64,000 bases of DNA from Psammoneis japonica (lineage: Eukaryota), in contig QPGO01000157.1 in assembly GCA_008632985.1 (NCBI GenBank), forward strand, positions 1 through 64,000. The letters run 5' to 3'. Position 1 is the stretch's first letter. Every line of letters begins with the position of its first letter. A model generated the notes under the pieces. It saw only the letters and a list, made by a program, of their open reading frames with translations, did not search any database and was not told the origin of the DNA. Shown here one piece after another: positions 20,901-62,500 of the stretch. The position numbers and the translations under genes were made by a program.

Positions 20901-21298
20901 GTGGAGGAGGAGATGCGTTCACAAAATTGCCTCTTTTTCTGTTGGCGGTCATTTGCATTTTAATCACTGAACAATTTTGCTGCAGAGCTTGCACGCAGAA
21001 TTGTGCAGGCCAAATGTCACAAAAAGTCCCACCTGGGACTGGAGCCCATCTTTTGCAGCATGTCAACAGCACTTGCCTCAAGTCACATTGCCCTCAATCT
21101 CTTTTCCTTCCCCCTTGAGGTTGTCAAGTGCAGCCTGAAGCACTGCCATGATGTGAAGTGCACGATGCCAAATGGACACATTTTTTCACAGTCAGCAGCC
21201 AGATTCTTGTCATCCTGATCAGGCAACACTGACTTAAAGCCATGTGGATGATTGACAACAGCAGACAAAATGTCAACGCGATCTTGTGCAACTGTCTT

Positions 21299-33203: not shown

Positions 33204-33449
33204 GGTAAATCACGCTGTTACTGTACAATGTCTCTCTTGAGAGATACCGGTACAATGCAAGTCGCCCTTGCCCACCTTGCCCCTTGACTACGGAACGGTA
33301 CGAGCCTTGACGTCGACAACGACAACACCAACAACAACACAGGGTGTGTGGCAGGGACATGTTTATGGGGGGAGGGACAGACGCTGACGAGGGGTGGCAC
33401 TTACCGGTGCCGAGTAAGTCACATTTAACATGGGCAGGGAAAGGGATGG

Positions 33450-34200
33450 AATTGGGGTTGGGAGTAGCGAGCTGGGACAGCAGTTTGGCGGAGTGGCGGG
33501 TGAGTTGGTCAGCAAGAGATTTGGTCATCGCAAAGCCAAGGCTTCAAAGGCCCCATTGTGATGGAGTCGAAGTGTGGTGGGGGTCAAGCCAAAATGTGCG
33601 GGGGTGTGTGTTTTTCCAAGTGGCAGCGGCAGTGGGGAGGATGGCAGATGGGGACAGTTGTGTGAAGGCCCAGGCAGCATGGGCAGTGGGGTGTTGGAAG
33701 GAGGATTTGGTGGTCCAAGGGGGGAGCAGGTGGGGCAGAGATGGGGTGTTGTTGGTCGGCTCCAAAGGGCCTCAGAGAGGAGGCGGTGTTCAAAGCAGCC
33801 AGTTGCTTCAAAGTGATCAATGGAGAAGGGGACAAGGTGGATGCCAGCATCATTGAGGGCATGTGCAAGGGTTGCTTTGTGTTGAGTTTTGTGTGTTCTG
33901 TCTGACTTCTGTTTGGTGCTCGTGCACATGGTGTGCCTTGGCGCACAAGGTTTGAGGATGGGGCAGGCAAGCCAGGAGCAGGCAGTGGAGGAGGTTTGGG
34001 AATGGCAACGTTGATTGCAAGGCAGTGGTGGCCACAGGGGGAGGCAGTGGAAGCAGCTGGATTGAGCTGGATGCCTGCATCAGCGGGGTGTTTGAGGGGT
34101 GAGTGGGGTTCGAGGTTGGTGGGTTCATGATGGACGGTGGAAGAGTCGGTGCAAATGCCGGAGAGGGGGGCGAGGGTCTGAAATGTGGGCTGTGGTCCAC
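33450..34200 (-). mobile_element. 3' end of a non-LTR retrotransposon with restriction-like endonuclease (CRE/R2-type), decayed
   Basis: KHPADAGIQL...LAINVAIP (cf. RPAD...LAIDVTI), followed by LVPFSIDHF (cf. PFxxDxFG). Confidence 0.45.
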
Positions 34201-34439
34201 CAGGAGGTTCTGACAAGATGTCAGAAGGAATGGACATTGAAGTTGACAGCACCATTGCCGTTGACACAAATGCACCAATTGAACACAAGCCTTCACATGA
34301 CACACATTTGTTGCATGAAAACCAAATCACAAATGAGAAAAATGAAGATGAACAAGTGGAGTTGAGCTGCAGTGGAGTGCCAGTGCCCAAGGCAAAAAGC
34401 ATGAATGCTGACATGCATGGCACCCACATCAGTCTTGGC

Positions 34440-35760
34440 TGGTGTGCAAACAAATGAGTGGAGCTCACTCATCTCGTTTGTTGAGAGTGTTGTTTGATTC
34501 AGGCAGTGCAGCTGCTCTCATTCATGAATGATGTTTGGCACACGGAGCCACTCCAAGTCTGTGCAAGAAGACAGTTGCATGCAATGTGGCTGCAGGACCA
34601 ATGAACAGCAATGGAGTGATTGGTTTGGAGACAATTGCATCACCTGAATTTGACAGGTCAAGGAGCATTCACTGTCAACAAGCGCTGGCATTTCAAATGC
34701 TGTGTCAATGCAACATGATTCTTGGATTGGATTTTTTGACCAAAGCAGGGACAGATGTAAATTTTTCATCAAGAACAGCAAAATGGTTGGACAAGTCCAT
34801 GCCTGTGAAAGAACTCACCTTTTGGGACAATGCAGAGAATGCTTGTTTTGCTCTTGCAGGTCCAGAAGCAGACAAGGAGGACATTGACAAATTTGAGTTT
34901 CATTCATGCGCTGCTCAAATTTTGGATGCCAAGTGTGAGTCAGCATCTCCAGAAGAAGTGGCCAAGAAGCAAAAGCATCAATCAAGAGAGCAGCAATTGG
35001 AGTTGCAACAAGTGCTGGCCAAATTTTCCAAGCTGTTTGACAGAGAATGGGGTCAGCATCCACACATGTTGGTTCACTTGGAAATTGATGCCAAAGCAAT
35101 TCCTGTCCATGCTCAAGCATGTGCTGTTCCAAGAATTCACCAAGACATTTTCAAAAAAGAACTTCAGCATCTTGTCTGAATGGGGGTGTTGAGGCCTTGT
35201 GGTCCCACTCAGTGGGCATTTCCTGCATTTGTCACACCTAAAAAGGATCAACAAGTGTGGTGGGCATCCAATTTTTGCATGCTCAACAAGGTGCTAAAGA
35301 GGTTGATCTGTCCTTTGCCAAGAATTCAAGACATTTTTAAGAAGAGAAAGGGACACAAGCATTTCACCAAGTTGGACTTGTCCATGTTCCACTGCAATTT
35401 GGAGCTGGATGAAGAATCCAAGGAACTGTGCACTGTTGTTGCTCCTTGTGGCAAGCTCCAATGTTGTCAACTTGAGATGGGATTAAAGCCAGCTCCAGGC
35501 ACCATTGCTCAAGTGGTGATTGAGGAAGTGCTGACTGACATGGATGCAGACTGCTTCATTGATGATGTTGGTCTCTTCTCAATCCTTTGGTTGGATCATC
35601 TGGCAGTGTTGAGTGCGATGCTGAAACAGCCAGAAGAGAATGGTTTGAAAGTAAATCCACTCAAGTGTGAATGGGCCATTCAAAAAACCGATTTTCTCAG
35701 GTGTTGGATGACTCCAGAAAGTGTCAAACCTTGGAAAAGAAGGTTTTGGCATGGCATCTT
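34440..35760 (+). mobile_element. Ty3/Gypsy pol remnant: aspartic protease and reverse transcriptase
   Basis: LRVLFDSGS (34481), CNMILGLDFL, WAFPAFVTPKKD, PLPRIQDI, FTKLDLSMFHC, DCFIDDVGLFS (YxDD region), NGLKVNPLKCEW. Confidence 0.92.
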
Positions 35761-36639
35761 TGTCACAGCACATCCATTTTACAACCTTGAGCTGCCCTCA
35801 AGATCTGAATCTGCATTTTGAGCTCCTGCCTGTTGGCAGCACGTCTTTGGTGGGGGTGGGGGGCAGACACAGGAGGCTCAGACCAAGTGAAGAGACAGGT
35901 GGGAGTGCAAACAATTGCTGCCAGCAGTCTTGGGCTCTGTTGGTTGCACCCAGTGCCATGTCTTGAAAAGTCATGACCTCCTGTCATTCTGCTGGAGACA
36001 TGTCCTGTGCGGTGCATTGTAAAGTTTCCCCCCTCCAGCTCAAAAGACTGTGTGTGCTCTTGTTGAGATCACGTAAAAACCACGCCAGGAGGGCTCTGCA
36101 TGGGATTTCACCATCTGACCCCCTGTGCTCATGCACAGCTCTGAACTGCAGTCAGTCTGATGGCACACTCTCTCTGCCCGGTCAAGCAAATTTTGTTTGA
36201 AGGATCACAAAAAAGCACCCAAATGAACCCAGCCCCCAGCGAGCATCCTGAAATGCACAACTCACACTCAACCTTGCCAGAGACTGTGTCAATGCAATGA
36301 CACCAAGTTGGGATTCTCACAGGATGGTGACATTGTGATGCTGACTTCCACCTCTGTCATTTCAAATGTTGCTGACACTGTGTCAGTCTCACTTTGCTCT
36401 CCCCACTGTGCCGCCACATGCCACAAACAATGGCCAAGGTTGCAAAGCATGAACAGGCCGCAAATGTGCAAACAGAGCTTTGCAGCAAATCCTGACATGG
36501 TTTCCTGGCCCTTTGATGAAATGCCAGTGTTCTTGTTCACATTGAGGTCCATCTTAATGGACACAGTGAGAGTCAGAATTGCGGGTGCACCAGCCCCAGA
36601 TTGCGGGTCTGTTTTGTGACTGCTGCCACCTTCAAGGCT

Positions 36640-36830
36640 GCCCCGTTGTCAAGATGGCCAAGCCCAGCACTTGAGAGGTGACATCATGCACATGTGGTCT
36701 TTGTGCATGAGCCAAGATCCACTTTTTGTGAAGCTGTTTCTTGATGGAAACCACTCTTGAATCCACCCCACTTGCAACCACAAGCAACTTGCTCATCTTG
36801 AGAATCGCTCTGACTGATTGCAGCTTGAAA
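36640..36830 (-). pseudogene. Captured, hypermutated fragment resembling UTP4/cirhin WD40 protein
   Basis: VVASGVDSRVVSI...WILAHAQRPHVHDV resembles the UTP4 SGVD...W...RxHTHDV motif. Confidence 0.5.
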
Positions 36831-36987
36831 TGAGTGTTCCTGTTGGCATGGATCTTCCCAAGCACTCCACCATCGTGCAAAATGCAGGCAACCATTTCAT
36901 GTTGTTGTCACCTGAAAGAAGACTCACAACACCGAATGGCTCCAACGGCAATGCTGCCGCCTCTCTAGCTAGACGGCGATGCTGTGG

Positions 36988-37464
36988 GTCTTACTTGCGC
37001 CGCAGGTGCAGGGGGCGGGCGCGAGGGACCGACAGGACAGGAGTGCGTTTCGCCTGCAATTTTTTTCGCGGCATCACATCGCGGTCTGCAGAGGTGTGAC
37101 AGTGAGTGAGTGCTCTCAGCTCTTAGTTGCACCCCACTCTAGAGAGTGTCGTCAATGGCTTTCATTTCGTAACAACTTCAAAAGGCTAGAGCACAGATTG
37201 GCCAAATCATTCGTCCGCTGTTCTCTTTTTTTCCCTGTCGGGCCGTCAACAACATGAGTCAAGAGCGTGCTCCGAATGCTGCGCAGAACGAGGATGATGA
37301 ACATCTCTTTCAAGCGGTGGAATGTCTCAGTGAAGAATCGATGGATTCTGTGTCGCCCTTGCTATGCCCATCAGGTGCATCTCGACCGTTGAAACATCTC
37401 CACAAGTCAACCATCATCTCAGCAGCATCCGTTACGTCGCATAAGGTCCAGATCCCTTGGTAAC
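36988..37464 (+). repeat. Direct duplicate (copy A, partly mutated) of 38119-38585
   Basis: Near-identical over ~470 bp, with 11 substitutions and 3 small indels. Confidence 0.97.
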
Positions 37465-38117: not shown

Positions 38118-38374
38118 NGTCTTACTTGCGCCGCAGGCGCAGGGGCGGGCGCGAGGGACCGACAGGAGTGCGTTTCGCCTGCAATTTTTTTCGCGGCATC
38201 ATATCGCGGTCTGCAGAGGTATGACAGTGAGTACTCTTAGCTCTTAGTCGCACCCTACTCTAGAGAGTGTCGTCAATGGCTTTCATTTCGTAACAACTTC
38301 AAAAGGCTAGAGTACAGATTGGCCAAATCATTCGTCCGCTATTCTCTTTTTTTCCCTGTCGGGCCGTCAACAAC

Positions 38375-40180
38375 ATGAGTCAAGAGCGTGCTCCGAATGC
38401 TGCGCAGAACGAGGATGATGAACATCTCTTTCAAGCGGTGGAATGTCTCAGTGAAGAATCGATGGATTCTGTGTCGCCCTTGCTATGCCCATCAGGTACA
38501 TCTCGACCGTTGAAACATCTCCACAAGTCAACCATCATCTCAGCAGTATCCGTTACGTCGCATAAGGTCCAGATCCCTTGGTAACATACTGTCAACACTA
38601 TCGCCTTCACTGCTCTTTCCAAGTAATCACGAACTTGGACAATCGGACCGCTCCGCATTTCTCTCTGCAGACTCTGACGTTGCCGACGATGCTGAATGCA
38701 GTGGAGGAGTCTGCGAAACTGCTTGGGGAATAAAAGGACAATCATGACACCATAACGACCGATCCTGTGCCTTTTTCTCAACAGAGACAGAGCGATGCTG
38801 ACGAAAACAATGTTTTCAAGCGAAAAGAGCCGAATCCAATTTTGGTTTCCATACTCTACGGACTCATCAACACCAGCATTGTACTACCGTATGTACCCGT
38901 CCTCATGTCGTTTGGGAGCATTATTTATTGCGATCCCGTCTTTGCTCCGTACATGTCAAGTTTGATCAAGCTCACAATAGTATCGGGTATGGTTCATCAA
39001 GTTTGTTTTTCGTCTCTGTCGACTTTGCCTTTTGCCGTGGAACAAGTGCAGGATGCGGGTCTTATCTTTTTGTCACAAATGGCTCGGACCATGGCTCAGT
39101 ACTGTAAGAATAATATTTACGCTGACGACGAAATGCTGGCAACCATCACGGTTGGGTTGGGGCTTTCTACTGCTTTTGTTGGGATGCGGTCTAATTCTGA
39201 TTGGCAAAGCACAACTCGCGCAGTGGGTTCAAGCCTTACCTACACCCGTGGTGGGAGGATACCTCGCATTTATTGGCTGGTTCTGCGGACTATCTGCTTT
39301 CAAGCTCATGTGCATTGATATCGACGACACGAATGCTGATTCTCTTTTTGAGTCACAGTGGATGTTTTGGTTGCCGGGTGTTGCTGGGGGGTTGTTGATT
39401 TACGTGCTTATCAGATCACTGCGACGTATGGCGGTGTTGCCTAGATGCATCCTCTTTATTCTGATGTTGTTCTATGCCAGTCTTTGGATAACAAACACAT
39501 CCATAGCTCAAGCTACAGAACTGGGATGGATCACGCATTTGTGGTATTATACTTGGGACTATGTCCGGTTGAACAAGGTTTGTTTGGTCAGCCTTGCCAC
39601 AACAAGCACTTACGTTGTGCAGCATGATTTTTGTCGTTGCTATTTCTAGTAGCTTGGATGTCGCGGCGATTGAATTGGAACTCAAGAACCAGCCGCTAGA
39701 CTACAATCGGGAACTGCAAATGGTGGGAACGAGTAATTTGGTTTCAGGACTGGCGGCCGGGTATACTGGAAGCTACATTCTTAGTCAAAGTGTCTTTTCT
39801 CTTCGAGCGGGAATCACTTCAAGATTAGCTGGTTTCGTTATCGCCGGCTGCGAATTGATTGTCTTTGTTCTCCCCTTCTCGGTTTTGTCGTTTGTTCCCA
39901 ACTTCTTTTTTGGAAGTCTCTTGATCATGATTTGCATTGATCTAATGTACGAATGGCTATGGGACGTTCGATCAAAATTCACGAGTGCGAGCTACATTAC
40001 ATGCCTTGGTACCTTTGGTTTGATCCAGGTGTTGGGGGTCGAGTATGGTATCATTGCCGGAGCTTGTCTGTACTTGCTGGCATTCAAGTTTGGATTCAAC
40101 ATGAGTGATCGTAGCACCGTTGACAACGACGTCAGAAATGCTACGACATATCATCAACTTGCGTCGAAGCTAGATTCCTA
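38375..40180 (+). pseudogene. SulP/SLC26 anion (sulfate/bicarbonate) transporter, disrupted
   Basis: QVQDAGLIFLS, LPTPVVGGYLAFIG, SSSLDVAAIE, DYNRELQMVGTSNLVSG...GYTGSYI. Frameshifts at ~39180 and ~39590, stops in the 5' part, no STAS domain seen. Confidence 0.88.
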
Positions 40181-48635: not shown

Positions 48636-51600
48636 AATGGGGGTAGTGGTATCAATAAAGATAGATTGGTAATAACAGTGTTTGATTCAATGCAAGCAAA
48701 ACTTGAAATTGTGTGGTGACTTGTTGCTTCTGGCCCATTCGTGAATGCGTAGAAACTGTACCGGAGAAGCCCGTAGGAAATCCGACGGAGTCCGCCGCTC
48801 ACGATTTTCGATTTCGCGGGAGTTGGCAGGTTTGCATGTCGGGTTACTCGTACCGGTACGACTGCCGGCGGGGCTCTAGCTGGCTGTGGAAGAGGTGAAA
48901 GCAATCAGACACGGAGACTGATGTTGGATGTATCCATGATGAATGCATCAACTTTGGAGCTGACATCTACAATGACACACCCAGTGTCACTTCGACAGAG
49001 CTCATTCTGCTGCAGGAGGAGTGCTGCACATGAGACCTTCGAACACACTTTGCAAAGGTCGCCAGTCAAAAAGTGCTGCAGTCTGCAGATTTTCGATGAC
49101 ATGTGTCCCAACTCCCACGTGTGAAGTCCACCTGGCATTCTTCTGTTGATTCTTCTTCCTCTTCTTTTGCCACACTTTGCCTCTGTTGTGCCCCAAATTT
49201 CATTTCTTCTTTCCCTTCCTTCCAGTTGCATCCACAATTGCACTTCATCTCTCCCTTTTGCAAATCGGACCAAACAGAGCCATGAGTGGATTTTCTCTCC
49301 TGTTCCTGCCTTTTGGGTTGTCAACGGATGACCCATCATTCTTGCTGTTCTGGGCCACTGCTCCCTTCTTCCGGCTGGAGCCACATCCTGCCATGATGCA
49401 CTCAGCTTCGTCATCGTCATTCAGGAGACATGCATCAATGATGATGCCAAGCAAGGAGCAGTCCAAGACTGCTGATGCCTTTTCAAAATGTTGCATTTGC
49501 TGCATGAGCCATGAGCAAGCAGTGTTGCTAGAGTGTTGTGCAAATTCGTCTGCAGCATCAAGAGCAACGGCAGAGGCAACTGGCCTCCAGGCCTGCGCTC
49601 CGTGAACTCTGATTTTTTGTGTTCTGCGGCACATCCACAGAACAGTGTTCCACAATGGTGACACCACCTTCACCTCAAGTTGTGCCAAGTGAGCCTTGGA
49701 GCAAANTCTTTGCCTTTCGATCCATTGCTGATCACAGTCAAGAATCACAACAGAGCCCTCCAACGTCATCTTCTGCAATGTTCCCAATCACAAAAATTCA
49801 TTTGATGCACAACAGAATCCCCAACAGAAGCACGACACTGCCAACAGCAAATGCAATGAACAATTCTCTTTTGAGCTCAATCCCATTGATCTTGTCCCTT
49901 TTAATTCTTTTCTTCTGAAGGGTGAAGCCGCAAACCCAATCACTGTGCAAACCAAAGCACAGCCCCAATGAATCAATCCAAAGACTGCATGCAATGCAGC
50001 AGAAGCAGCAGCATTTGATGTGACACAGAAGCTAAAAGTGCCACAAGCAAGACCTGCAAAACTTTGTTGCTCATGATTTGATGAATCATGGCACCCAACC
50101 GTGTTTGCAAAGTTGAAGCCATGACTGCATGCACCATCCAAAACAGTGTGCTGCCACATGAAACACCCCAGGGGATTGGGGAAAGCTCTGCCAACTGATG
50201 TTGCATTGAAAAAGACAGCCATGGCAAAAATGCCACAGACAGCCACAATTTTGCACCTTGGAGCAAATTTTCATTCTTCCATCATTTCAGTCAACAGTGT
50301 GGCCTCTCTTGCATCTTGACTGTTGTTCATTTGCTTGTCATTCTTCTGTCCTCCCAGTTTGGCTGCAGAACCTTCAAATGCGTGCATTGCCTGACAAGCC
50401 AATGTGACAGCCACATGGTCTGTCCATTGATCCCCAGATGCTTCTGCCAAAACATTCCCATCATTTTTTTTGAGTTGAGCAATGCACTTGCCTTTGGCAC
50501 TGTAATTTTTTGCCTTTTTTAAGAGTTCAACACAACACAGAAGCTCAAAGTGCCACAAGCAAGACCAGCAAAACTTTGTTGCTTGTGATTTGATGAAGCA
50601 TGGTGTCCGACAGTGTTCCTGCCAGCATCACAATGACAGTGCCCATGTCAATCATGGGTCAATCTGCCAGTGGGTGCTTCACTTGACTGTCCAAAAGAGT
50701 TGAGGCCACAGCTGCTCCAAGAACAGTGACAGTGGTGAGAGGACTCACGATGCTGGCTGGTGCAGTCACAATCATTGGAAAAATGAGCAGGATCATCCTC
50801 CTGCTAAAAAAAATGCAGCCATTGCCCATTGCTGCAATCACAACCACAAGCAGCCAATCAACCAGAGAGCCAGCAGCAGGCAGACAGAGGATGACGTGAT
50901 GACACAATTTTTTGTGAGGACATCTGCCCTTCATCATGTGTCACGTGTGCCCACGTCATTTGTGAAGCAGCATGACTTCAAAGACATGGGTGCCCTGGCT
51001 TGGGAGGGCCAACAGCTTCAGGCTTGTTGCATTTGACAGTGTGTCACAGGTGCGAATGTAAAAGCAGTTTGTGTCATGCATGCAGTGCAGCTCTGGCAGA
51101 GAGGAGGCAAGGGGTCATTGACACTTTGGAGGTGGCCCAACAAATTGCACCTGCCATTTGTCAAACAGATGGACAAATGTCCAAACTGGCAGCTCCCACC
51201 TCAGCTTCTTTCATCCTTGTTGGTCACATTTGATGCAGAGAATCAGTGGCACCAAATCTGTTTGTTCATTTCAGAGAGAGAGAGACCCCAAGCAAACACC
51301 TGACAGAGCTCCCATCAGATGATCCACAATGTTGGAGAATGACAAAGGTGGCACAGTTCTTTGTGGTGCAATGAACTTTTTTTGCTTTTTGTGTGTTTGA
51401 CAGAACAGCTGTGCACAGACACAAACCAACTTGACTGATTGTCTCTGAGGGACAGCAAGGCACACTGAGCTGATGTGGTGCCAAGGATTTACAAGGCAAA
51501 CTTGTAAATCCTGGTGGCACACAGCGCTGGTGGCAATGCTGTGTGCAGCATCAAATCAGCACCACGCATGTCATCTCCACATTGACTTGCAGCAGATTTG

Positions 51601-52949
51601 TTGAATGGCAGGGTCATCAAACCCTGCATGACACAGAGTGGCACAGCTCAACTTCAGCAAAACAGGGAGCAACAGGTGCCAGCCCAGATGACACATGAGA
51701 GGACACAAAGGCTTGTCATTGTTGCAAATCATTGTTGCAAACAAAATTTTGCAGGCTGGAATCACCCTGCAGTGATGAAATTCTGCACATCAGAGTTGAA
51801 CCTGCACGCTTGAATCATTTGACATTTCCCAGGGCAAAAGTTTCAGCCCAAGTCTGGAGAATGTCCAAAACTGGTGTGATGAGAAGCAAATCTCATGTGG
51901 GAAAATGCAGTCTGGTGCCAAGTTGACATGCACTCAGCAAGCAGAATTTCATGCAAGTTGTGTGGCAACAGTTGCTGATCTTGAGAAGCACAAAAGATGC
52001 AGGCTTGCAATTTGGCAAAGTGCAGTTGGCAAGTTGTGAGCCAACATTGTTGGGTTGTCAGAATGGGATTTCCATCAATGACACCGCAGTGCTCAGATTT
52101 GAGACCATGCATCTCTGCCAGCATGCTTGCCAGAGAGGAGGATGTTGTGACATTTGGTTTTGTCATTCAAAAAATCCTCAATCATTTCCAGTCACTCAAA
52201 GAAGGGCTTGAAATGTTCTTGGTCTTGGCCTCACAACCAAAACAGGCAAGAAGATGTGCTGGAAAGCTGTGCCAGCATGTGATGATGGGGGGCACATGGC
52301 AAGCTGCCTGTCCATTTCCTGACAACATGGAAAGGACAAACAACATTTTGCATTGCCTTGTCACACAACCAGCTGTCACTTGGGTGTGTTTGATGCTTTG
52401 TGGCACATTTTGCACTCAGAGTTAAGCAGGTTTTGACAGGTTCTTAGTGATTGCCTTCATTGCATGTGGAGTGCCTGCTGTCACTTTGGCCATTTGGGAG
52501 GTTCCTTGAAGCTCTGTGACATGAGCCACACTTGCAAATGCAATGCTTGAGACTCTTGACAAGCACTCCTCTTGCATGCAAGCCTGCTTGTCTGCCACAA
52601 TTTTGGCTCTTGCTGACAAAAGCAGGAAGGTGAAAGCCAGAGTTTGGCAAGTCATGACCTGCTTGCCTGCTCCCCCACTAAAGAGTCATCTGTGACATGT
52701 TTCTGTGCTGAACCAGAGTGATGCTTGTCAACAATTGAAGTTCCTAAATGTCTGCCCATTGTTTCTGTCAATCTTCATCACACATGGACATTGGCTGTTC
52801 TTCTTGATGGCTGTCAAGTTGCAAATGATTCAATTGTTTTCACTTGTTTTGAGTTGCCAGTTTTGCTTTTTGTGTGTGCATCATCAAACTTGTTAAGTTT
52901 GCATGCATTTCATCCCTTCTCTTTCTGCCAACCCAAAATCTGCCAATGA

Positions 52950-55900
52950 CAATGGCGCACCCCTGTCACAATCCACTCTGTCCCAGTCAGATGTCTGACA
53001 ACAATGACCAGCATGCTCTCCACCGACATTTCCAAAGACATCCCCAGTGCTCTTTTTTCTTTTGTTGTGGCCTCAACAATGTGTCTTCCTCTCCCAACCA
53101 CTTTTGTGTGACAACGGTGCCTCCATCTCTTTTGATGCATCAGCGCCTCTCAACCGTTCCCTTGATTCAAGTGCCAAATGATTCTTGTCCCTGTCTCTTG
53201 GTTGGGGTGGTGATCCATCCTGCCTTTTCCGAATGGCAGTGATCAAGAGTTTCAATTGTCCACCCATGTTGATCCCTTCTCCAATGAACTGCCATTGGAT
53301 TTTTCCTCCAACAACAATGTTGTTGATTCTCATCATGCGCCACTGCCAGAAGAACTCAGTGTTGGGTCTCTTGCCCCAGACCCTTCTGATGGTGGCATCT
53401 TCTGTGATGATGTCTTTTTCCTGGAGAAGGAGTTTGACGTTCTCTCAGCACAACACTCTGTGTCATCCTCTTCCCTCCCCAATGATGACAAGGATGATGA
53501 TGGATTGCACTGCTTTGACGCACTTAGATGGAAGAAGCTCAGCTGTTGCAACCTCCATGCATTTGTGTGACCAACAGCAGCAGCACCAAGAAGCTTCATT
53601 CAGTGGAGGAAGAGCTGGTTGTGATGATGAAGAAGCATTGTCTCTCCCATGGTTTGTGCAAGAAGCATTTTCTCTCCCCTGGTTTGTACAAGGCTTTTTG
53701 TTTTTGGGCCAAACATGCCAAGGAGAGTGGCTGTGAGTGCAAGTCTCTCTTGAAAGCTGAGCATTTTGGTTTTGGTGGCCCAGAGCACATTTGCTCCACA
53801 GTGCATGTGGACCCCGAGATTTCCCCCCAATGCATGTGCACTGATTTTCCTTTCTGCACTGTGTGAGAAGGGTTTTCTGCAATCCCCAGGTTGTCCAGTC
53901 TTGTCAGTGGTTGTGCAATGAGAAGTGCTGCCCCAAACTAAACAAGCACATTTGTGACTCTCTTGACACTGGAAACTGGTGGAAGCAAGTGGAGCATGAT
54001 CTCTCAAATCTTCCCTTGATCAACTTGGCAATGACTGGATCACACTTTGTTTGCCCAGTTGTGCTGTTTGACAACTCCACCCTCCTTTGTGAAAACATGG
54101 GTCATTTGCAGTCACAACCCATTCTTGTGACATTGGGCAATTTTAATGATGAGTGTCATTGCAGCCACTCCCTTTGGTCAACACCAGGAATGGTGCCGCC
54201 ACACCCAAAGACAAGCATTGAGTGCACTGCCAACTTTCAGTCAAAGCTCAGACAGGCGACATGCATCAAGTTCCACCACAGCACTTTGCACAAGATGTTC
54301 ACAGAGTTGCTTCAACTGTCAAAGCAAAAGACTGGTTTCCCAATTGTGGTGCCATCTCTCAGCTTTGTTCATCTCCACTTTTGATTTGTGCACGACAATC
54401 AGCCATGCAAAAGGTCACGACAACATGGCTTGTCACCACAACCCCATTCAAGCAACATCTCCTGGATGAACAGGGACTGTGACACACCACAGCATTTTGG
54501 TGACAATCCCTTGCTGCTTGGCTGCATTTTGGCGGAACAAGAGAACATTGAGGAGACAGTGGAGGCTGCCATGACAGCCATGGAGGAGGAAAGGCATCAT
54601 GGCAAGGCAACTGCTGCTTGTGAACAGTGCAAGGACATTTCTCAGCACTTCACTCATCCCATGTTTTGGGACATCTCTCATGGTGGAGGAAAGCACAGCA
54701 TTTTTGTCATGCTCCCCTGGAACCTGTTGCATGCCTTGCACTTTGGTCTTTGCAAGCATCTGCCTTGTGCCTTCTTCAACCTGCATCAAGTCCCAGAAAA
54801 CATGTTGTCATGGTGTTGCAAATGTCATGTTGCTGGGAATGCACAATGGACAACTGATCATCCATCACATTCAAGGAGCTCCCTGAGCTGTTTGACAAAG
54901 CTGAGTTTGAGAGATGCTTCAGAGTTGCCACACATGCACCCAGGAGGCAAAGCGATTGGAAGGTGCCAAGAGCTCCATTCAAGAATGGAGTCACCAACCA
55001 GACTCATCTTTCTGGCCAAGAGCATCCAGGTTTGTTGCTTGCAACACTTGTGCAATGAAAGGCATGCTTTCGAAGGAAGATGAAAGCCTCAAGCCACTGG
55101 AGAGTCAACTTTCCCACCTGATGTTCATGTCTTTGGGATTGGACGCAGCACTGTCCATGTCCTCCAACAAGGAAAGCTTCCTTCTCACTTGGCTTCAGAA
55201 ATGCATCCTCAAGCATCTCCAATTGTTTTGATTTGCAGTCAGCCCATTCAGAGAGTGCCACTCTTGTTCCAGACTTTGCACACCCAAGTTCCATGTCCTT
55301 CTTCACTTCCTTTTTTGTGTTTGTCAGCGGGGCAATGCCAACACTTTTTTGGTGGATTCTGTGAAGCTCTCCTCAAGATGCTTTTTTGAAGCAACTCACT
55401 AAAAACACAAGTCATTGGCAAGATGGGCTCAACCTGGATGTGATGAATTGCCACTGTGAGGACCTTGTGGTTGGGAAATGATCAGAGAAGCATTTGCTGG
55501 AGGTGGGTTGGCTGCATGCACAAGAGGAAGAGGCTTGTCCTGACTCTCCACCATCAAATTGTGCATGCACTGACCCTGCAAGTGGATTCAAACCATGTGA
55601 ATCTGTCTTGGTGACTGCTTGGGTTACAAGCATGGATCACAACAATGCCACATGGTCTGTAAAATGTGGCAACAAACAGCTGGAGACACTGTCATGTCCT
55701 TTTGTTCCTGACCATTGCAGCAAGGAGTGGGTCACCTCCTTGCTGGATCATGCGGAACATTGCAAAGGTTTCCCAGTTGACATTGTGAATTTTCATTTGT
55801 TTTGGATGCAATGCTCTGGGCCCTGTCAATGACAAACATGACATTCTAAGATGCCACCCTCACTTTCACTCCTGCCCATGGGAACAAAGGAGTTGGCACA
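52950..55900 (+). mobile_element. Plavaka-type transposase remnant
   Basis: LDTGNWW...FVCPVVLFDNST...GHLQSQPILVTLGNF...W...GMVP, ISHAKGHD, NRDCD and SIFVMLPWNLLH follow the Plavaka motif order. Confidence 0.7.
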
Positions 55901-57439
55901 GCTGGTCCATGGTGAACTGGGACAAGAACAAAATGAGCCATTTCTGTTGCAACTCATGTGTTGTTGGGCAACCTTGGAAAATAAAACGAAGGAGTGCAAA
56001 TCCACAATTTGTGCAATCCAATCACTTTGGAGCTTCGTGCCATCCAAAGATTTGCTGCTGACCTTTTTCTTCAGCACTGAAACAGAGTCAGAAATCAGAG
56101 TTGTTGAAATTTCTGACACATTGTCTGTTGTCTGCTGCCTTTGTTCTTCCATTGATTGGGTTGCCACAAGACCCCTTTCCTGACAACCCAGAGGATGTCA
56201 CTTGTTTTGTCGTTGGACAAAAGGTGTTGATTGAAGTCCTGGAGATGGGAGTGTGCAGGCACGAGTGTGAAAATTCCAATCTTAACAAGAACACATCAAC
56301 ATGATAAAATCAAACTTGTTGAATGCATGCATGTGACATTGATGACCAAATGATTCATTGAGGTTGTTTCAAATCATTTGAACCATCACATTGCAACAAA
56401 AAGATTGAATTTTAAAACAAAATTGTTGCTGAAAAAGAGATGCTGGTGGGAATCAACTGACAGCAAGGCTTGCATTTTGGTCAAAAACATGAATTGTCAC
56501 TCCCCCCACAAGACACAAAAATGCAATCTCAAGTCACATGCAATGCATGAGAGCAGTGGTGACAGGCAGCGAAGTTGTGAATGGGATGGAACAAAATGCA
56601 GGACACAAGGTGAGAAAGAGGAAACAAGTGGCGAATGCATGGAGATGGGCCCACAAGCAAATGACTGACACTTGTGCACATCTTTGTGCACAGATGTCCA
56701 AACACATGTCCTGAGCTGCAACGCAAGATGGGCAATGGGGAAGGGCACAAAGGTGAGCAGAAGCAGTGCATGAAACAAAATTGTAAGAAACACAAAACAT
56801 GCACAAAAATTGATCATTGAGACAAAGTTTTTTCTCCAGTTTTGCGGGCGATGCTTTGGCCAGCCAAACAGAAGGAATGCAAGATTGACCATTGGAGGAC
56901 AATGTCATTGCCTGGTGTGGATGGTTGTGGAGAGAGCAAGAGTGGTTGCAAGGGAGGCCACAAGGGCTGAAAACATCACACCCATGGTTGGGGACTGTGA
57001 AAGACAACAGGAACTGGTGGAACACAGGAAAAAAAGAACAGGAAAAAGGGAGCATTTTGCAGCATGCAGTGTGGAAACAACAAAACAGAACAACTGCACA
57101 TCAGACAACAAGCAGCATGGAGGACAATTGAACATCATGGTTGTCAGAAGTGGACAATGTCAGAATGTTGTTGCAAACACATGGTTGTTGAGATGGAAAC
57201 AGATGCAAGTGACGCATTTCATTGAGTGTCATTTCCTGCTTGGAAGGTTTGAAATGAGCAGACACAAAGAATTGTCAAGGATGTGTGCACAACAAGACTG
57301 ATTTGCATCAGCTGTTAAATCCCACTTGGAATGTTCAAACAATTGTCAAGCTCCCTTTGTTGACAATCATTTGGAACTTGTTAAGAAAACAGAACCCTGA
57401 ACAAGAGAATGTGAGTTCTGAACAAGAGCCGCGACATTT

Positions 57440-58930
57440 TCCAAATGTGAGCACCCCACATTCCTTTGGCGACCTGCCTGTTCACTCTCTCACACAGCAT
57501 GGAAAGGAAGAACAACATCTTGCACAGGCTGCAGCAGCAATGGCAAAACATGAGCAGCGCTGAGAAACAAGCAACAAAAAAGAATGGGCTGTCACAAACT
57601 CGTCATCTTTGCATGCAAGAAACAGCTTCTGTGATGCCAGCACCTGGTGTTTTCTGCAAGGTCGCTGAAGCTGGAGCTTGTCCTGCAACACAAGCACAAG
57701 AAGCTTGTCAGCTGCACATGCTGGTGGGTCTTAAAAGCCCAAAGAGCACCCACCTTGCTTTGGTGCTCTGCTCTGCTTGTTCATTCCCTGATCATGACAT
57801 GAAAAAAAAGAACAACATGTTGCACAGGCTGCAACAGCAATGGCAAAAAGCAAAAACATGAGCAGCACTGGGAAACAACAGTCCAGTGGAAGCTGTGCTG
57901 GCCATCATGTGGGTGTTGTGCAGGGTGGCTGAAATGACAAGCACCCCTCTTGCATGCAGGCTTGCTTGCCTCCCACAGTTTTTGATTCTGCTGACAGAAG
58001 CAAGCAGGTTGTCAAATGTGGAGCTGATGGGTTGGGGCCTCCTTGCCTGTGAATTGTTTTTTGCCTCTGTTCATCATGAAAAAACCAAAAGCTGATGCTG
58101 CAAAAAACACAAGCAGCTGAGCAGCTGTGCAGCCAAGCATGTGCTTGCCTTTTCCACAGATGTCTGTCAGGGTGCAGCACATGGTGAGCTGCTTGCTTGT
58201 TTCCTGACAACAAGGACAAACAACAACATCTTGCTGCACCTTGTCACATCTTTGGCAGTTACCTGGTTTCCAAGACTTGTTCATTCCCTGACAACAAGGG
58301 CAGAAAGAACAACATCTTGCACAGGCTGCAACACCAGCTGCAACAGCAAACACAAAAAGGAGTGGGGAACAAGCAATGAAAAAGAATGGACAGTCAGAAG
58401 CTCAACACCTCAGCCCACCACAAGCAGCTTTTGGCTGAAGCTTGAGCTCCTGCAGCTCAAGCCATGCAAGAAACTGAGCAGCTGCACACTTGCTCATCTG
58501 CTCAGCTTCCTTTGTTTGTCTTGCAGGAGCTCCAGCTTTGGCCACTCTGCACAAAGTGCCACATGCTGGCCAGAGCAAAAAAGCTGCTTGTGGTGAGTTC
58601 TTGAGGTGTTCCAGCAGCCCTCCTCTTGGGTGTCATGAGGCCTTCTTGAAGCCAGCACAGAGAAGCTGTTTGTGAGTTGAGGTGGCTGTTGAGCTTGTGA
58701 CAGCACACTCTTTTTCATTGCTTGTTCCCCAGTGCTGCTCATGTTTGCTGCCACCAATGCTGCTGCCAGCACAGCCTGCAGCACCAGATGTCACTCTTCC
58801 TTGGTTTGTGGACCAAGAAGCACCCACCTTCCTTTGGCTGTCTGCTTGTTCACTTCCTGACAAAGCAGAGTGAAAGAACAGCATCTTGCACACAGAAGCA
58901 AGCAACCGCAGCAGCAACAGCAGCAGCAAG
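57440..58930. repeat. Cluster of decayed ~150 bp repeats in direct and inverted orientation; related pieces at ~52290-52630
   Basis: aagaacaacatcttgcacaggctgca...aaacaagcaa..aaaaagaatgg at ~57508, 57808 and 58305; inverted at ~58690-58790; partial at ~58845. Confidence 0.75.
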
Positions 58931-58944
58931 AGATTGGTGGCATT

Positions 58945-59415
58945 GAGTCCTTCCATTCCTTTGGCAGATGATGAAAGCACCACAAAGCTGGTTTCATTTT
59001 GATCCAACAGACCAAGAACAGCACCACACTTGTGTTGGCTCTTAAGAATGTCAAACAGGCTACAGCCCAAATGGATCTTCCCCTTGTCTTCCTTGGGCTT
59101 TGGCAAACATGCTGTCTCATGCTGTCAGGAGTGTTGTCACTTGTTGCATCCATGGAAACAACAGTGCTGCTTGCGAACATGGCTGCATTTGTCAACAACA
59201 ACACTTTCTCTGCCATTGACTTGTCAGACTCAGAATCTGCCTTTTGCTGTGTGTTTCGGCAGCAGGACTTGCAATGCACTGAGCATCAAGAACAATCTTG
59301 CAGCTTCATTGTCATCAGAATCACTGTGGCAAATCATGCTGTTCCTGTGCAAGGTCTCTCTTGAGAGTTGGTGTCCCCCCCTGCCCCTTGACCATCAATG
59401 ATGTCAACAACCACA
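58945..59415 (-). pseudogene. Hypermutated duplicate of the 5' end and upstream region of the TBC gene (32841-33330)
   Basis: Colinear same-orientation alignment, e.g. gatccaacagaccaagaacag vs gatccaacagaccgagaacag, and shared tctctcttgagag. Confidence 0.92.
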
Positions 59416-59599
59416 GGCAACAGAATGCTTTTCTTTTTTGCCAAAAACACATCTTTTCAGTGCACCACAGTTCAAGTTCTGTGTGAGGTGATGGCATGGG
59501 CATTGAATCATGTGACCAAAATTGTTTTGTGTCACTTGAAGATGATTGGAGGGAGAGTGCAGAATCTGTGAGCAAAACACACTGCAATTGCATTGACTG

Positions 59600-62500
59600 A
59601 TGAGTGAAAGCCATGGCATGATGTTGGGCAAAGGTGTGAGAACACTCAGTGTGATGGCCCTGCACAGGAACCTTGACACATGTTGGCTCACATGGGAAGC
59701 CTTGACCAAGTGTTGGAAGCGAGAACATTGTGGCTGCCACTGACACTTTTTTGGAACCCTGTTTTGAAAATCTTTCTGCAGCTGACCAACACATTTTTTG
59801 TGGCTTGTTTTGGCACAGAGACAGAGGCTTGGTTGGAGCCTTTCATTGCTCACATGAAAAGAATCAAGGGCAGGGAGTTTTAACCTGGGAAACTGTGGTG
59901 GCCTCCCCAAGCTCAACAAGAACAAAAAAATCGCTTCCCCAAGGCTGTCACACTTCTGGAGCAGCTCGACATCTCCAAGAAGGCATTTGACTTGGTGCTC
60001 ACTAAGAATTTGAAATTGTTGCTTGAACAAGCTTCTTGCAAGATTCCCAATGCTCAGACTTGGTGATTGTTCTGGTGCGTTCTTCATCACCATGCTGGAA
60101 CTCAGGGATGAGAACAATTTCACCCCAACTTCATCAAATTGTGCACTTGCAATCTTGTCGTTGCTTGCAACAAGGATCAAATGGGTTTCCCCTCCTCTCC
60201 TGCAGCTGGCATGGTAACACAGTTGCTTGCGACAGTGTGCACTGAGAAGGATTTTCTGCCATTTGTAGAACTGCAGGCACTTGCCCATCCAGTTCTGCAA
60301 TCATTGTCCGATAAGACAGGAAATGCAATCACGAAGTTGACCGTCCTAGACAAGGCAAATCGCAAAACTAAGAGACTTTACGCAGTGCTGCCAAAACACG
60401 AAAACCTGTAGCGAAAACAAAGACAGTCAACCAAATAATTGAATTGCTTGAAGAGAGCAGCGATGAGGACCACGCCCTTTTGAAACTGGTTGCAAGCAGT
60501 TTCGATTATGCTCTATGTAGCACACAAGATCTCGTGCTCGATGAGTCAAAGGTTATAGCGCTTAGGGACTACGTTAAGATGAGTCTAAACGGAGTGCTAC
60601 GGCTGGACAGTAGGTTTATCCAGGCTCATCTCAACATTCGAATATTCTCTACCCAGCTGAAGAAGATAATCTCACGATGTGAATCAGAAGGGAGTTTGGC
60701 GCATGGAGCAACTCTAATACCCGTGATCATAGACAAGAATGGAAACAAAAAAGCTTTAAGGGCTTTTGGTGGATAAAGCAACCGCGACGGGTTTTGGAGA
60801 AGCTCACCGAGGTATGCCACGTTGCTGGCAAATTCGAGGAATCCGAATCCTTCAGTTCCGAAACGAACGAACTCGTCGTAGTATTCGGCGGTGACAAAGG
60901 AGGTGATGCATTCACCCTTTTGATTCGAATAGCGAATCACAGAGACGGAAATAAAGGGACAAATTGCCAGCCCCAGTGCCAGTACGAGTGTGCAGCGGAA
61001 TGCGAGTTCAGCCGTCGAGCCTCTGCCTACAGTATTGTGATGTTTCCAATGACAGCATTCTTGCAAGATCTGGTGGACGATGCCCTCCACATCATCACAT
61101 TCGACGCCGGCAATGGATGCAGCTGTTGCAAATGCGCTTCCATCAAGTTTATCGCCTCTTCCAGTAACGGTGAATATTCATTGACGTTTGATAGCATTGT
61201 AGTCGACGCCTCCTTTTCAAATGCCGCTCTGCCGGCAGAGGAAGAAGAAATGAAGAACAGCCTGACACGTTGGATCTCTCAAGCTACACGACTGCTACAG
61301 GGAGCAAGATTGAGCTCATTGCCACGTTGGTAAAGTCGAGTGAAACTTCTAGTGACTGTGACGGCTTCAGACTTTCCGTCGGTGCCACCGGGCCAATTGT
61401 GTGTCGCCATGAATTCGAAGAAGGTAAACTCGTAGTTGGGGACAACGCAAACATCAATGTGACATTCCAGCAAAAAGTTGGGTTTCCGAGCAACGATACA
61501 AAGCAGTCGTTGATAGTTTCTGGCCAAGGCACTGCATCCAATCAATGTAACTGATTTGCGCGGAAGATCACATTTACTTTACAAGCCACGCCCCCAAATG
61601 GATACAAGAAATGGATGTCGAAAATAAGATAGTGACAGTCGAATACACACCAGCCCCTGTACGTGAAGGAGACTTTGCCAATCACTTGCTTTACCAAAAG
61701 TGGGCCGAACGCACCCACAACGGCAACGTACCGTCATCCAACAAAGAAGACAGACTTGAATGCGGAAGCGTTCACAAGGCTCCGCTTTTGAGAGTGCCAC
61801 CTCACAAGGAAACGATGACAGCCATGCACACACCACAAGGCGTTTTCACTCATTTTGCTGATGAAATCAGGAAGCGCATTTGTTTCATTGAAAAGAATTC
61901 AGCGTGGAGCGCTGAGGTCGAACGTGAACATGCCGCGGTAGAGAATCGCATCAGGAGAAGTGTCCAGGATGGCTCAAGGCGAGACGGAATTCAAGTCAGT
62001 ATGTTAAGTCCCAAAGGAAATTAGAAAAGGATTTTGAGAGGGAAATGGCAAGTGGGAACCAAGATGAAGAAACAATATACATAGACTCCGAGAAGAATTG
62101 CAGCATGCCATCATGCTACCGTGATGACGAACTTGGGACAGGAGCATAGGTTGCAGGAGGGACTTACTCGATTTGTCTCATCTATGCAATCATATTGCTC
62201 CAAGAATAGCATGAAGCCAAAAGGGAGAGGTGAGTTTGTATACAACAAGAGCTTTGAGGTTTTGGTGCAGGTAAGGTTTCGCGCTGAGCACAGCGGTTAC
62301 GAGTTGAGCCACGCAGACGGAATGACAGCTCAGAAAAGTGAGACACCATTTGTGAGAATGTGGCGCAGTGCTATGCATGGTATGACCAGCATCAAAACTT
62401 ACATGATGCTTTAATAGAGCTAGGTAATGGAAAGCTCTGAAAAAGTTGCGCGGCCTTTGCTTAAAGTATCAAAAAGATTCTGAAATCCCAAAAGAAACCA

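What the first reader, a model, noticed from the sequence alone, without database searches (positions are those of the whole stretch)
48930..60300. Sequence-context rule: surviving TpA sites are nearly all TAA/TTA
Residual TAs in the domains are overwhelmingly ttaa, gtaa, ctaa, ttta, ttac or ttag. GTAC, GTAT, ATAC and ATAT are essentially absent. In the young duplicate every GTAY/ATAT site was converted, while GTAA, ATAA, TTAC and CTAG survived. This suggests a preferred target close to RTAY, with A-tract contexts slower but not immune (ttac>tcac occurs in the TBC copy). Such a 4-mer preference points to an enzyme or DNA-shape-dependent chemistry (inference).
Basis: partly seen in the sequence, partly recalled or inferred. 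Interest (0 to 1): 0.72.

Follow-up and report, generated by a model that had tools for sequence, protein, structure and literature searches.

The report
TpA erasure spares A-tract flanks
In the transposon-rich blocks of this diatom genome nearly every TA and CG has been mutated to TG or CA, and the few TAs left sit next to runs of A or T, a fingerprint pointing to a targeted DNA-editing process that I could not find described.

Summary
Four sharp-bordered blocks (28.3 kb of the window) have lost TpA (o/e 0.05) and CpG (o/e 0.18) to TpG/CpA, while base composition is unchanged. Of 97 TAs left in the blocks, 87 are TAA/TTA, against 546 of 1478 outside (p 1e-25). GTAC, GTAT/ATAC and ATAT number 1, 1 and 0.

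After controlling for flank composition, survival is 0.71 for TTAA and at most 0.012 for RTAY. Three copy-versus-source alignments show the conversions directly: RTAY 13 of 13 converted, TAA/TTA-type 4 of 13.

The rule reaches beyond a 4-mer. Protection grows with the length of the A-run 3' (or T-run 5') up to position +3. The two flanks multiply, and one A3+ tract protects both strands, so the duplex or its shape is being read.

In a young duplicate all 11 substitutions are at TA (9 of 18 sites) or CG (2 of 32), with none at 367 other sites. Only the copy next to the block changed.

The process is therefore local, faster than CpG decay, still running and not symmetric like RIP. The best reading is an enzyme-driven A:T-to-G:C editing of TpA in silenced DNA, with the enzyme unknown. 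Ten literature searches found no description of it.

The parts
48930..60200 (.). TA/CG-converted block 4 (the finding's interval). Its left 0.9 kb still keeps some CG.
   Evidence: TA o/e 0.01-0.07, CG 0.02-0.33, CA/TG 1.6-2.1. Borders are sharp within 150-300 bp. 37 TAs, 32 of them TAA/TTA.
1..2800 (.). Converted block 1 (runs off the window). It has a margin at 2650-3550 where TA is low but CG is partly kept.
14150..25000 (.). Converted block 2. In 20000-25000 TA is as depleted as elsewhere while about 40% of CG remains.
   Evidence: The CG-retaining parts (5.9 kb) hold TA 18 and CG 134; the old parts (21.8 kb) hold TA 78 and CG 136.
33550..36900 (.). Converted block 3, holding a truncated Ty3/gypsy remnant.
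34439..35818 (+). Dead gypsy protease-RT remnant. Conserved Tyr codons have become Cys or His codons.
   Evidence: tblastn to P0089 residues 51-480; PF00078. Of 9 conserved Tyr, 6 are now Cys (TGY), 2 His (CAY) and 1 Phe. There are 5 Arg changes of CGN>CAN/TGN type. Tyr is 1 of 429 residues against 3.9% in homologues.
36988..37464 (+). Young duplicate, converted copy, abutting block 3.
   Evidence: 9 of 18 TA and 2 of 32 CG converted, 0 of 367 other sites changed.
38119..38585 (+). Young duplicate, unconverted source copy (5' region of the sulfate-permease gene).
   Evidence: it keeps TA at all 9 discordant sites. PF00916 lies downstream.
58944..59367 (+). Old converted copy of the 5' end of the TBC/rhodanese-type gene, inside block 4.
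   Evidence: 73% nucleotide identity but 90% in purine/pyrimidine code. 11 of 12 TA and 27 of 31 CG converted by transition to CA/TG, none of either kept.
32840..33243 (+). Unconverted source of that copy (gene on the minus strand, ORF 30612-33209).
2856..3051 (+). Partly converted copy at the margin of block 1. Its source is 40419-40599 on the minus strand.
   Evidence: 6 of 9 TA and 5 of 7 CG converted.
53845..55080 (+). Converted remnant of a Plavaka-type DNA transposase (two ORFs in one frame, one stop between them).
   Evidence: PF18759, E 2.2e-8, on 53845-54381.

Best explanation
The window is nuclear DNA of a diatom. In its silenced, transposon-rich blocks and their margins of roughly 0.5 kb, a local process turns TpA into TpG or CpA (an A:T-to-G:C transition on either strand). 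CpG decays to the same two products alongside it, so G+C does not change. The TA process reads the duplex around the step. It is fastest at R-TA-Y, slower with C 5' or G 3', and progressively blocked by an A-run on the 3' side or a T-run on the 5' side. The residual TAs are therefore TTAA, NTAAA and TTTAN. These steps are shown: the direction of change, the flank rule, the restriction to blocks and their margins, speed greater than CpG decay, and persistence. This step is inferred: an enzyme recruited to silent chromatin modifies or deaminates the adenine of TpA, or oxidises its thymine. It would need to deform or open the TpA step, which rigid A-tracts resist. Its effect is to kill transposons (Tyr codons, TAA/TAG stops and TATA-like signals vanish) without making AT-rich DNA.
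For: Mass balance: base composition is identical inside and outside the blocks (A .262, C .237, G .238, T .262). Total YR steps are 0.240 against 0.246. CG falls .056>.010 and TA .042>.0034, while CA+TG rises by .079.

Direction and location: in three copy-versus-source pairs 26 of 39 TA sites went to CA/TG, always in the copy lying in or against a block.

Context: RTAY 13 of 13 converted, mixed flanks 8 of 10, CTAG 1 of 3, TAA/TTA-type 4 of 13. Survivor statistics agree.

Duplex-level reading: a multiplicative flank model fits (deviance 22.1, 14 df, p .08), whereas independent half-sites are rejected (deviance 52.1; delta lnL 15). One-sided A3+ tracts keep 18 of about 29 sites.

Speed: in the young duplicate all 11 substitutions are at TA or CG, with 0 at 367 other sites (p 3e-11). 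TA is converted at 9 of 18 sites against CG at 2 of 32 (p 7e-4). RTAY is 6 of 6.

Persistence: 10 of 86 CA/TG sites in the old copy swapped to TG/CA, against 0.9 expected from independent double hits (p 3e-8). Only 2 RTAY stand beside 1500 RCAY/RTGY in the blocks.

Not an inherent trait of the element: 0 of 78 related gypsy loci have TA o/e below 0.45.

Lethal to the element: 8 of 9 conserved Tyr became Cys or His, including the Tyr of the RT's catalytic Y-x-D-D motif (motif name recalled), which now reads CFIDD.
Against: No enzyme, base modification or chromatin mark was seen; no whole genome is held, so all of that is inference.

The ancestral TA counts for the survival models are proxies (outside DNA, or flank-matched YR sites). 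The fast classes probably sit at a floor set by re-creation, so fitted rates are lower bounds. At least the two TAs in the old TBC copy are newly made, not survivors.

Which strand or base is hit at asymmetric sites is unresolved. Product counts favour VTAA>VCAA (delta lnL 22.6, but only if outside DNA equals the ancestor), while the four direct cases split 2:2.

The A-tract gradient would also fit a non-enzymatic chemistry limited by base-pair opening.

The converted zone of the young duplicate ends somewhere between 37426 and 37587, and the duplication ends at 37464. A duplication-limited trigger is therefore not excluded by position alone.

Everything rests on one 64-kb window and 39 directly polarised TA sites.
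Confidence: 0.6

Rival explanations
1. Spontaneous chemistry dependent on DNA shape or base-pair opening, with no dedicated enzyme. TpA steps in flexible alternating contexts are damaged (hydrolytic deamination, photoproducts), and silent chromatin merely lacks repair.
For: Protection scales smoothly with A-run length, as would be expected from the long base-pair lifetimes of A-tracts (recalled, no call). CG survival is also somewhat higher between G/C flanks: 0.33 for GCGC against 0.13 for ACGA/TCGT and CCGG.
Against: RTAY conversion is at least about 14 times faster per dinucleotide than CpG decay in the same 477 bp, and at least about 57 times the background bound. Spontaneous adenine deamination is slower than that of cytosine or 5mC (recalled). 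Borders are sharp within 150-300 bp. Nearest-neighbour stability does not order the flanks: AA is the most protective, though recalled nearest-neighbour stacking values (no call) would place it among the weaker steps.
Confidence: 0.12
2. A RIP-like mechanism triggered by duplication and acting before meiosis. It would use a RID/DNMT4-type enzyme and detect repeats by homology rather than by chromatin state.
For: Diatom DNMT4 groups with fungal RID and its function is unknown (PMC9998398, passages read). All three polarised cases are duplicates. The converted zone of the young duplicate ends within 160 bp of the duplication end.
Against: Only one copy is hit in each pair: 9:0 in the young duplicate (p 0.004), and the gene copy of the TBC fragment keeps normal TA and CG. 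An 87%-identical 2.8-kb inverted duplicate (3566-6331 versus 43634-40878) shows an ordinary symmetric spectrum. New TA/CG keep being purged in an old copy only 73% identical to its source. The targets are TA and CG, not CpA.
Confidence: 0.1
3. A by-product of repairing deaminated 5mC. Frequent T:G repair in methylated blocks would recruit an error-prone polymerase with a TA/WA hotspot, as in the A:T phase of antibody hypermutation.
For: TA and CG conversion occupy the same blocks. Polymerase eta makes A>G errors at WA (recalled, no call).
Against: 0 of 367 non-TA, non-CG sites changed while 9 of 18 TA did, far more specific than a polymerase error spectrum. AA is not depleted (o/e 1.19 inside against 1.11 outside). 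TA conversion precedes CG loss in the margins.
Confidence: 0.07
4. Selection rather than mutation. The elements or the host would avoid TA and CG, for example to escape RNA- or DNA-level restriction that reads UpA/CpG.
For: Joint CpG and UpA suppression is known in RNA viruses; the paper in the listing (PMC2707012) writes it as CpG and TpA. Only the listing was seen.
Against: Non-transposon gene fragments are converted in place. The conversions destroy conserved Tyr and Arg codons and the RT active-site motif. CA and TG gains are strand-symmetric. Related elements elsewhere are not TA-poor.
Confidence: 0.04
5. A sequencing or assembly artefact, for example modified bases miscalled in long reads.
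For: 5mC and 6mA can cause systematic miscalls on some platforms (recalled, no call).
Against: Contigs built independently from a public run at word depth about 110-130 match the block with 0-13 differences per 0.7-1.7 kb. They have the same depth as the right-hand flanking DNA (the left flank reads several-fold higher, as summed depth over repeats), though that run may be the assembly's own source. The converted copies also carry indels and transversions.
Confidence: 0.02

Closest known systems
Repeat-induced point mutation (RIP) of Neurospora and other ascomycetes (RID, DIM-2)
   Same: Transition hypermutation with a dinucleotide rule. It inactivates transposons and gene fragments caught with them, with fairly sharp limits and some leakage into flanks.
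   Different: RIP changes C to T at CpA, makes DNA AT-rich and TpA-rich, hits both copies of a duplication and stops once copies diverge (recalled). Here TA and CG are both lost, G+C is unchanged, TpA/ApT is 0.058 and (CpA+TpG)/(ApC+GpT) is 2.02, the opposite of RIP indices. One copy only is hit, and purging continues in a copy 73% identical to its source.
CpG decay by deamination of 5-methylcytosine in methylated transposons
   Same: This explains the CG>TG/CA half of the pattern and its weak flank dependence (survival 0.13-0.33). Diatom transposons are known to be CpG-methylated (PMC9998398, passages).
   Different: It cannot remove TpA. One related environmental element (L074) shows CG o/e 0.11 with normal TA 0.76, which is what CpG decay alone looks like.
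Adenosine deaminases of the TadA/ADAT and ADAR types, and the adenine base editors derived from TadA
   Same: A to I (read as G), with a strong preference for U/T 5' of the target and sensitivity to the 3' neighbour (recalled, no call).
   Different: Their natural substrates are RNA. No natural enzyme editing genomic duplex DNA at TpA is known to me. No such gene was seen here. The multiplicative two-flank effect fits duplex recognition better than a single-strand context.
Symmetric N6-adenine methylation at ApT (VATB motif) by MT-A70-type complexes in ciliates, green algae and early fungi
   Same: A palindromic A/T dinucleotide with disfavoured T 5' and A 3' flanks. The motif is recalled; of the preprint 10.1101/2024.10.28.620566 only the listing was seen.
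   Different: The core is ApT, not TpA. It marks active genes, not transposons, and is not known to be mutagenic. ApT is not depleted here (o/e 0.86 inside against 0.92 outside).
Context-specific hypermutation of transposons in basidiomycetes (TpCpG) and APOBEC editing of retroelements
   Same: Transposon-directed transitions with a short sequence rule (PMC3318451 and PMC4866542; listings and abstract starts only).
   Different: Both are C to T only; neither touches A:T pairs.

Membership tests
RIP (ascomycete repeat-induced point mutation) | C-to-T transitions mainly at CpA, giving TpA excess and AT enrichment | tested here: not met
   TpA/ApT is 0.058 and (CpA+TpG)/(ApC+GpT) is 2.02 in the blocks. 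G+C is identical inside and outside.
RIP (ascomycete repeat-induced point mutation) | Both copies of a duplication are mutated | tested here: not met
   9:0 asymmetry in the young duplicate. The gene copy of the TBC fragment is unconverted. The 2.8-kb pair at 87% identity has an ordinary spectrum.
RIP (ascomycete repeat-induced point mutation) | Depends on a RID-type cytosine methyltransferase homologue and acts before meiosis | not testable with these tools
   No whole genome is held. Some diatoms have RID-like DNMT4 (PMC9998398).
5mC-driven CpG decay | CG depleted with matching TG/CA excess in methylated repeats | tested here: met
   CG o/e is 0.18 in the blocks against 0.98 outside. 32 of 38 source CGs changed to CA/TG in two pairs.
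5mC-driven CpG decay | Accounts for all dinucleotide losses in the region | tested here: not met
   TA o/e is 0.05, and TA conversion outruns CG (9 of 18 against 2 of 32).
5mC-driven CpG decay | The blocks are CpG-methylated | not testable with these tools
   No methylation data could be read.
Adenine deamination (TadA/ADAR-like) acting on DNA | A-to-G changes with T required 5' of the edited A | tested here: met
   All conversions are TA>TG or its complement TA>CA. AA, CA and GA steps are not lost.
Adenine deamination (TadA/ADAR-like) acting on DNA | A deaminase-fold enzyme is present and inosine occurs in the DNA | not testable with these tools
   No genome, no chemistry. Pfam scans of ORFs of at least 130-140 aa (74 ORFs; 21 of the 41 outside ORFs listed were not scanned) gave no deaminase.
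Adenine deamination (TadA/ADAR-like) acting on DNA | Per-strand (single-strand context) specificity | tested here: inconclusive
   The independent half-site model is rejected, but product counts hint at strand choice at VTAA. Direct cases split 2:2.
Symmetric 6mA system (MT-A70 type, ApT/VATB) | Target dinucleotide is ApT | tested here: not met
   ApT is unaffected (o/e 0.86 against 0.92). The affected step is TpA.

The most novel reading that the evidence does not exclude
This diatom has a chromatin-targeted enzyme that edits duplex genomic DNA at TpA (A:T to G:C). It would be a natural adenine- or thymine-directed base editor with an R-TA-Y preference and exclusion by A-tracts. Working together with 5mC decay, it would act as a G+C-neutral counterpart of RIP that erases Tyr codons, TAA/TAG stops and TATA-like signals from transposons.
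Probability: 0.4. Interest if true: 0.92.

Novelty: new variant of a known kind. Interest (0 to 1): 0.8.

Why it matters
Transposon-directed hypermutation is known only as C-to-T: RIP, 5mC decay and APOBEC. A process that removes TpA by A:T-to-G:C transitions, at least tens of times faster than background and faster than CpG decay, would be a new kind of genome defence and a new source of mutation bias.

The flank rule measured here (RTAY fastest, protection multiplying with A/T-run length, TTAA almost immune) is the enzyme's fingerprint. It tells an experimenter which duplex oligonucleotides to compare, and which candidate specificities to look for among deaminases, adenine methyltransferases and TET/JBP dioxygenases.

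If the enzyme acts on duplex DNA it would also interest base-editing technology. For annotation, such blocks give long false ORFs in all frames, because TAA and TAG are nearly gone: TAA/TTA 4.2 and TAG/CTA 1.3 per kb, against 16.8 and 17.8 outside.

Tried and rejected
1. Whole genome: none is held, so genome-wide per-context rates and a search for the enzyme were impossible.

2. Additive model of independent half-sites: it fitted the 16 tetramers marginally (deviance 21.9, 12 df, p .04). It was rejected once A-run length was included.

3. The pair 3566-6331 versus 43634-40878 was first taken for the young duplicate. Its spectrum is symmetric and ordinary, so it was dropped as evidence.

4. Reads: one public run holds the stretch. 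Laying its contigs confirmed the sequence, but only 40 of 341 differing places were printed, and many come from paralogous copies. No inside-versus-outside polymorphism spectrum could be made.

5. Pfam on 46 ORFs of at least 130 aa inside the blocks: only RVT_1 and Plavaka passed. The weak DCR hit (E 0.004, below cut-off) was ignored.

6. ORF 23703-24362 (minus strand) of the CG-retaining part: 0 relatives among 1.84 billion representatives, so the origin of that part is unknown.

7. Related gypsy loci from metagenomes: none is TA-depleted. However, the two search peptides need intact Tyr or His, so converted copies in other diatoms could have been missed. This does not show that the process is confined to this species.

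8. Earlier notes of this scan: nothing on this genome. The one hit on words was a CA/TG-rich phage island in another genome, which does not bear on this.

9. Literature: ten searches found no paper describing joint TpA and CpG conversion in transposons of diatoms or other eukaryotes. Subscription journals are not covered. One search failed on syntax and was resent.

10. Nearest-neighbour duplex stability as the sole predictor was considered and rejected: AA is the most protective flank, although recalled stacking values (no call) would place it among the weaker steps.

Full report
WHAT IS THERE

Counting dinucleotides along the window shows four sharp-bordered blocks: 1-2800, 14150-25000, 33550-36900 and 48930-60200, together 28.3 kb. 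In them both TpA (o/e 0.01-0.10 per kb) and CpG (0.02-0.49) are nearly gone, and CpA and TpG are nearly doubled (1.5-2.1).

Outside the blocks TA o/e is 0.61 and CG 0.98. Base composition is the same inside and outside to the third decimal, and so is the total of pyrimidine-purine steps (0.240 against 0.246). CG falls by .046, TA by .038, and CA+TG rises by .079. So CG and TA have been turned into CA/TG by transitions, with no net change of G+C. Borders are sharp within 150-300 bp.

The blocks hold a truncated Ty3/gypsy protease-RT and a Plavaka-type transposase remnant. The genes between the blocks have their best relatives in diatoms, at 48% identity or less. No whole genome is held for this window.

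THE OBSERVATION

The blocks keep 97 TAs. They split as TTAA 31, CTAA/TTAG 25, GTAA/TTAC 23, ATAA/TTAT 8, CTAG 3, CTAC/GTAG 3, ATAG/CTAT 2, GTAC 1, ATAC/GTAT 1 and ATAT 0.

- 87 of 97 are TAA/TTA, against 546 of 1478 outside (Fisher p 1e-25).
Survival runs from 0.71 (TTAA) through 0.15-0.37 (CTAA/TTAG), 0.09-0.22 (GTAA/TTAC), 0.04-0.08 (ATAA/TTAT) and 0.055 (CTAG) to at most 0.012 (RTAY).
- A transposon-based reference gives the same verdict. In 78 related gypsy loci from metagenomes (23,101 TAs), TAA/TTA is 43.9% and TTAA 6.6% of TAs.

CG survival depends far less on context, ranging from 0.13 to 0.33.

DIRECT EVIDENCE FOR DIRECTION AND RULE

Three segments inside or against a block have an unconverted source elsewhere in the window.

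(a) 58944-59367 in block 4 copies the 5' end of the TBC/rhodanese-type gene at 32840-33243. Identity is 73%, but 90% in purine/pyrimidine code.

(b) 2856-3051, at the margin of block 1, copies 40419-40599.

(c) 36988-37464, abutting block 3, copies 38119-38585.

In (a) and (b), 17 of 21 source TAs became CA (8) or TG (9), and 32 of 38 source CGs became CA (20) or TG (12).

In (c) all 11 substitutions are at TA (9 of 18 sites) or CG (2 of 32 sites). None is at the 367 other aligned sites (p 3e-11).

Pooled by class over the three pairs: RTAY 13 of 13 converted; one favourable flank (CTAC/GTAG, CTAT/ATAG) 8 of 10; CTAG 1 of 3; TAA/TTA-type 4 of 13 (RTAY against TAA/TTA p 0.0005).

Protein evidence agrees. 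In the gypsy remnant, 8 of 9 conserved Tyr are now Cys (TGY, 6) or His (CAY, 2). Five conserved Arg are Gln, Trp or Cys. Tyr is 1 of 429 residues against 3.9% in homologues.

REFINING THE RULE

Among survivors, A is enriched at +1, +2 and +3 on the 3' side of the TA: 61, 52 and 43% against 20-28% expected. There is no enrichment at +4.

Survival rises with the length of the A-run 3' or the T-run 5':
- 0.014 with none on either side;
- 0.074 with one on one side;
- 0.215 with two on one side;
- 0.62 with three or more on one side;
- about 0.5 with one on each side.

A model in which each strand's half-site is attacked independently fitted the 16 tetramers only marginally. It fails once run length is included (deviance 52.1, 14 df). 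A model in which the two flanks multiply fits (deviance 22.1, p .08; delta lnL 15). Its relative factors are T 1, C 0.76, G 0.56, one A 0.36, two A 0.24, and three or more A 0.05.

A one-sided A3+ tract keeps 18 sites where independent half-sites allow at most 3.4 (p 2e-8). The process therefore reads the duplex, or its shape, on both sides of the step.

Which base changes at asymmetric sites is open. Product counts favour VTAA>VCAA (under the assumption that outside DNA stands for the ancestor). The four direct cases split 2:2.

KINETICS AND TARGETING

TA conversion runs ahead of CG decay.
- In the young duplicate, TA is converted at 9 of 18 sites against CG at 2 of 32 (p 7e-4).
- In the CG-retaining parts of the blocks (5.9 kb), TA is already as rare (18) as in the old parts (78 in 21.8 kb), while CG is about four times denser (134 against 136 in 21.8 kb).
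- Three borders have margins with low TA and near-normal CG.

From 6 of 6 RTAY against 0 of 367 other sites, the RTAY rate is at least about 57 times the background bound per dinucleotide.

The process is still running. In the old copy, 10 of 86 CA/TG sites have swapped to TG/CA, where 0.9 double hits are expected (p 3e-8). That is what follows if every new CG or TA made by an ordinary transition is quickly resolved to either product. The blocks hold 2 RTAY beside 1500 RCAY/RTGY. The two TAs now present in that copy are newly made.

Targeting follows place, not duplication as such. In each pair only the copy in or against a block changed (9:0 in the young duplicate, p 0.004). An 87%-identical 2.8-kb inverted duplicate lying outside the blocks has an ordinary symmetric spectrum. 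One caveat remains: the converted zone of the young duplicate ends between 37426 and 37587, an interval that contains the duplication end at 37464.

IS IT REAL?

Contigs built from the one public run that holds the stretch match the blocks with 0-13 differences per 0.7-1.7 kb. Their depth equals that of the right-hand flank; the left flank (44001-48669) reads several-fold higher, as summed depth over repeats. That run may be the assembly's own source. The converted copies also carry indels and transversions. Related gypsy elements elsewhere are not TA-poor: 0 of 78 have TA o/e below 0.45. That search needed intact Tyr or His peptides, so converted relatives could have been missed.

HOW IT MOST LIKELY WORKS

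Shown: an in-place, block-limited, persistent, very fast conversion of TpA to TpG/CpA, whose rate is set by both flanks of the duplex. It runs together with ordinary-looking CpG decay.

Inferred: an enzyme recruited to silent chromatin acts on the adenine (deamination, or a modification that is then misread) or on the thymine (oxidation) of TpA. It would need to open or deform the step, which A-tracts resist. The stiffness and long base-pair lifetimes of A-tracts are recalled, not tested.

Rivals, with my odds:
- spontaneous shape-dependent chemistry, 0.12;
- a duplication-triggered RIP-like process, 0.10;
- collateral errors of 5mC repair, 0.07;
- selection against TA/CG, 0.04;
- artefact, 0.02.

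COMPARISON WITH WHAT IS KNOWN

It works like RIP in outcome: transposon-killing transitions with a dinucleotide rule. It fails RIP's defining features. The target and direction differ, the RIP indices are inverted (0.058 and 2.02), the pairs are hit asymmetrically, and G+C is unchanged.

The CG half fits 5mC decay. The TA half resembles the neighbour preference of adenosine deaminases (recalled) and the V..B flanks of ApT adenine methylation (recalled), but it is a member of neither.

Diatom DNMT4 is related to fungal RID and has no known function (PMC9998398, passages read). Ten full-text searches found no description of joint TpA and CpG conversion.

VERDICT

It is refined to a duplex-level rule that extends beyond the tetramer. 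I file it as a new variant of transposon-directed hypermutation. There is a substantial chance (about 0.4) that it reflects an undescribed DNA-editing enzyme.

Noticed in passing
window 53845-55080 (+): Remnant of a Plavaka-type (CACTA/KDZ-like) DNA transposase in a diatom (PF18759, E 2e-8). The contigs laid give 3-5 times the single-copy depth over 52672-57340, so the element is repeated in the genome.
   Followed up: partly
window 3566-6331 vs 43634-40878 (inverted): A 2.8-kb inverted segmental duplication at 87% identity, with an ordinary symmetric substitution spectrum. Both copies lie outside the converted blocks.
   Followed up: yes
window 6110-7445; 26188-26479; 47336-47627; 37545-37685: Tandem repeats: a unit of about 557 bp at 6110-7226 with further copies to 7445, about 54 bp at 26188-26479, 69 bp inside an ORF at 47336-47627, and about 51 bp at 37545-37685.
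   Followed up: no
window 8159-8537, and single N at 2011, 38118, 49706: An assembly gap of 379 N and three isolated N. The window is a scaffolded draft.
   Followed up: no
all four blocks: Because TAA and TAG are nearly gone (4.2 and 1.3 per kb against 16.8 and 17.8 outside), long stop-free frames appear on both strands and in several frames. Gene callers would over-predict here.
   Followed up: partly
locus L074 (metagenome contig, 2005 bp): A related gypsy element with CG o/e 0.11 but normal TA (0.76). This is classical CpG decay without TA loss, in another organism.
   Followed up: no
window 12649-13437 (+): An ORF with a PhyH-type 2-oxoglutarate dioxygenase domain (E 2e-6), 0.7 kb from the left border of block 2. 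It is a generic family and no link to the conversion is claimed.
   Followed up: no
window 20000-25000: The CG-retaining part of block 2 has long minus-strand frames (21301-22275, 23124-24362) with no Pfam hit, and the one frame searched (23703-24362) had no relative among 1.84 billion representatives. What was converted here is unknown.
   Followed up: partly
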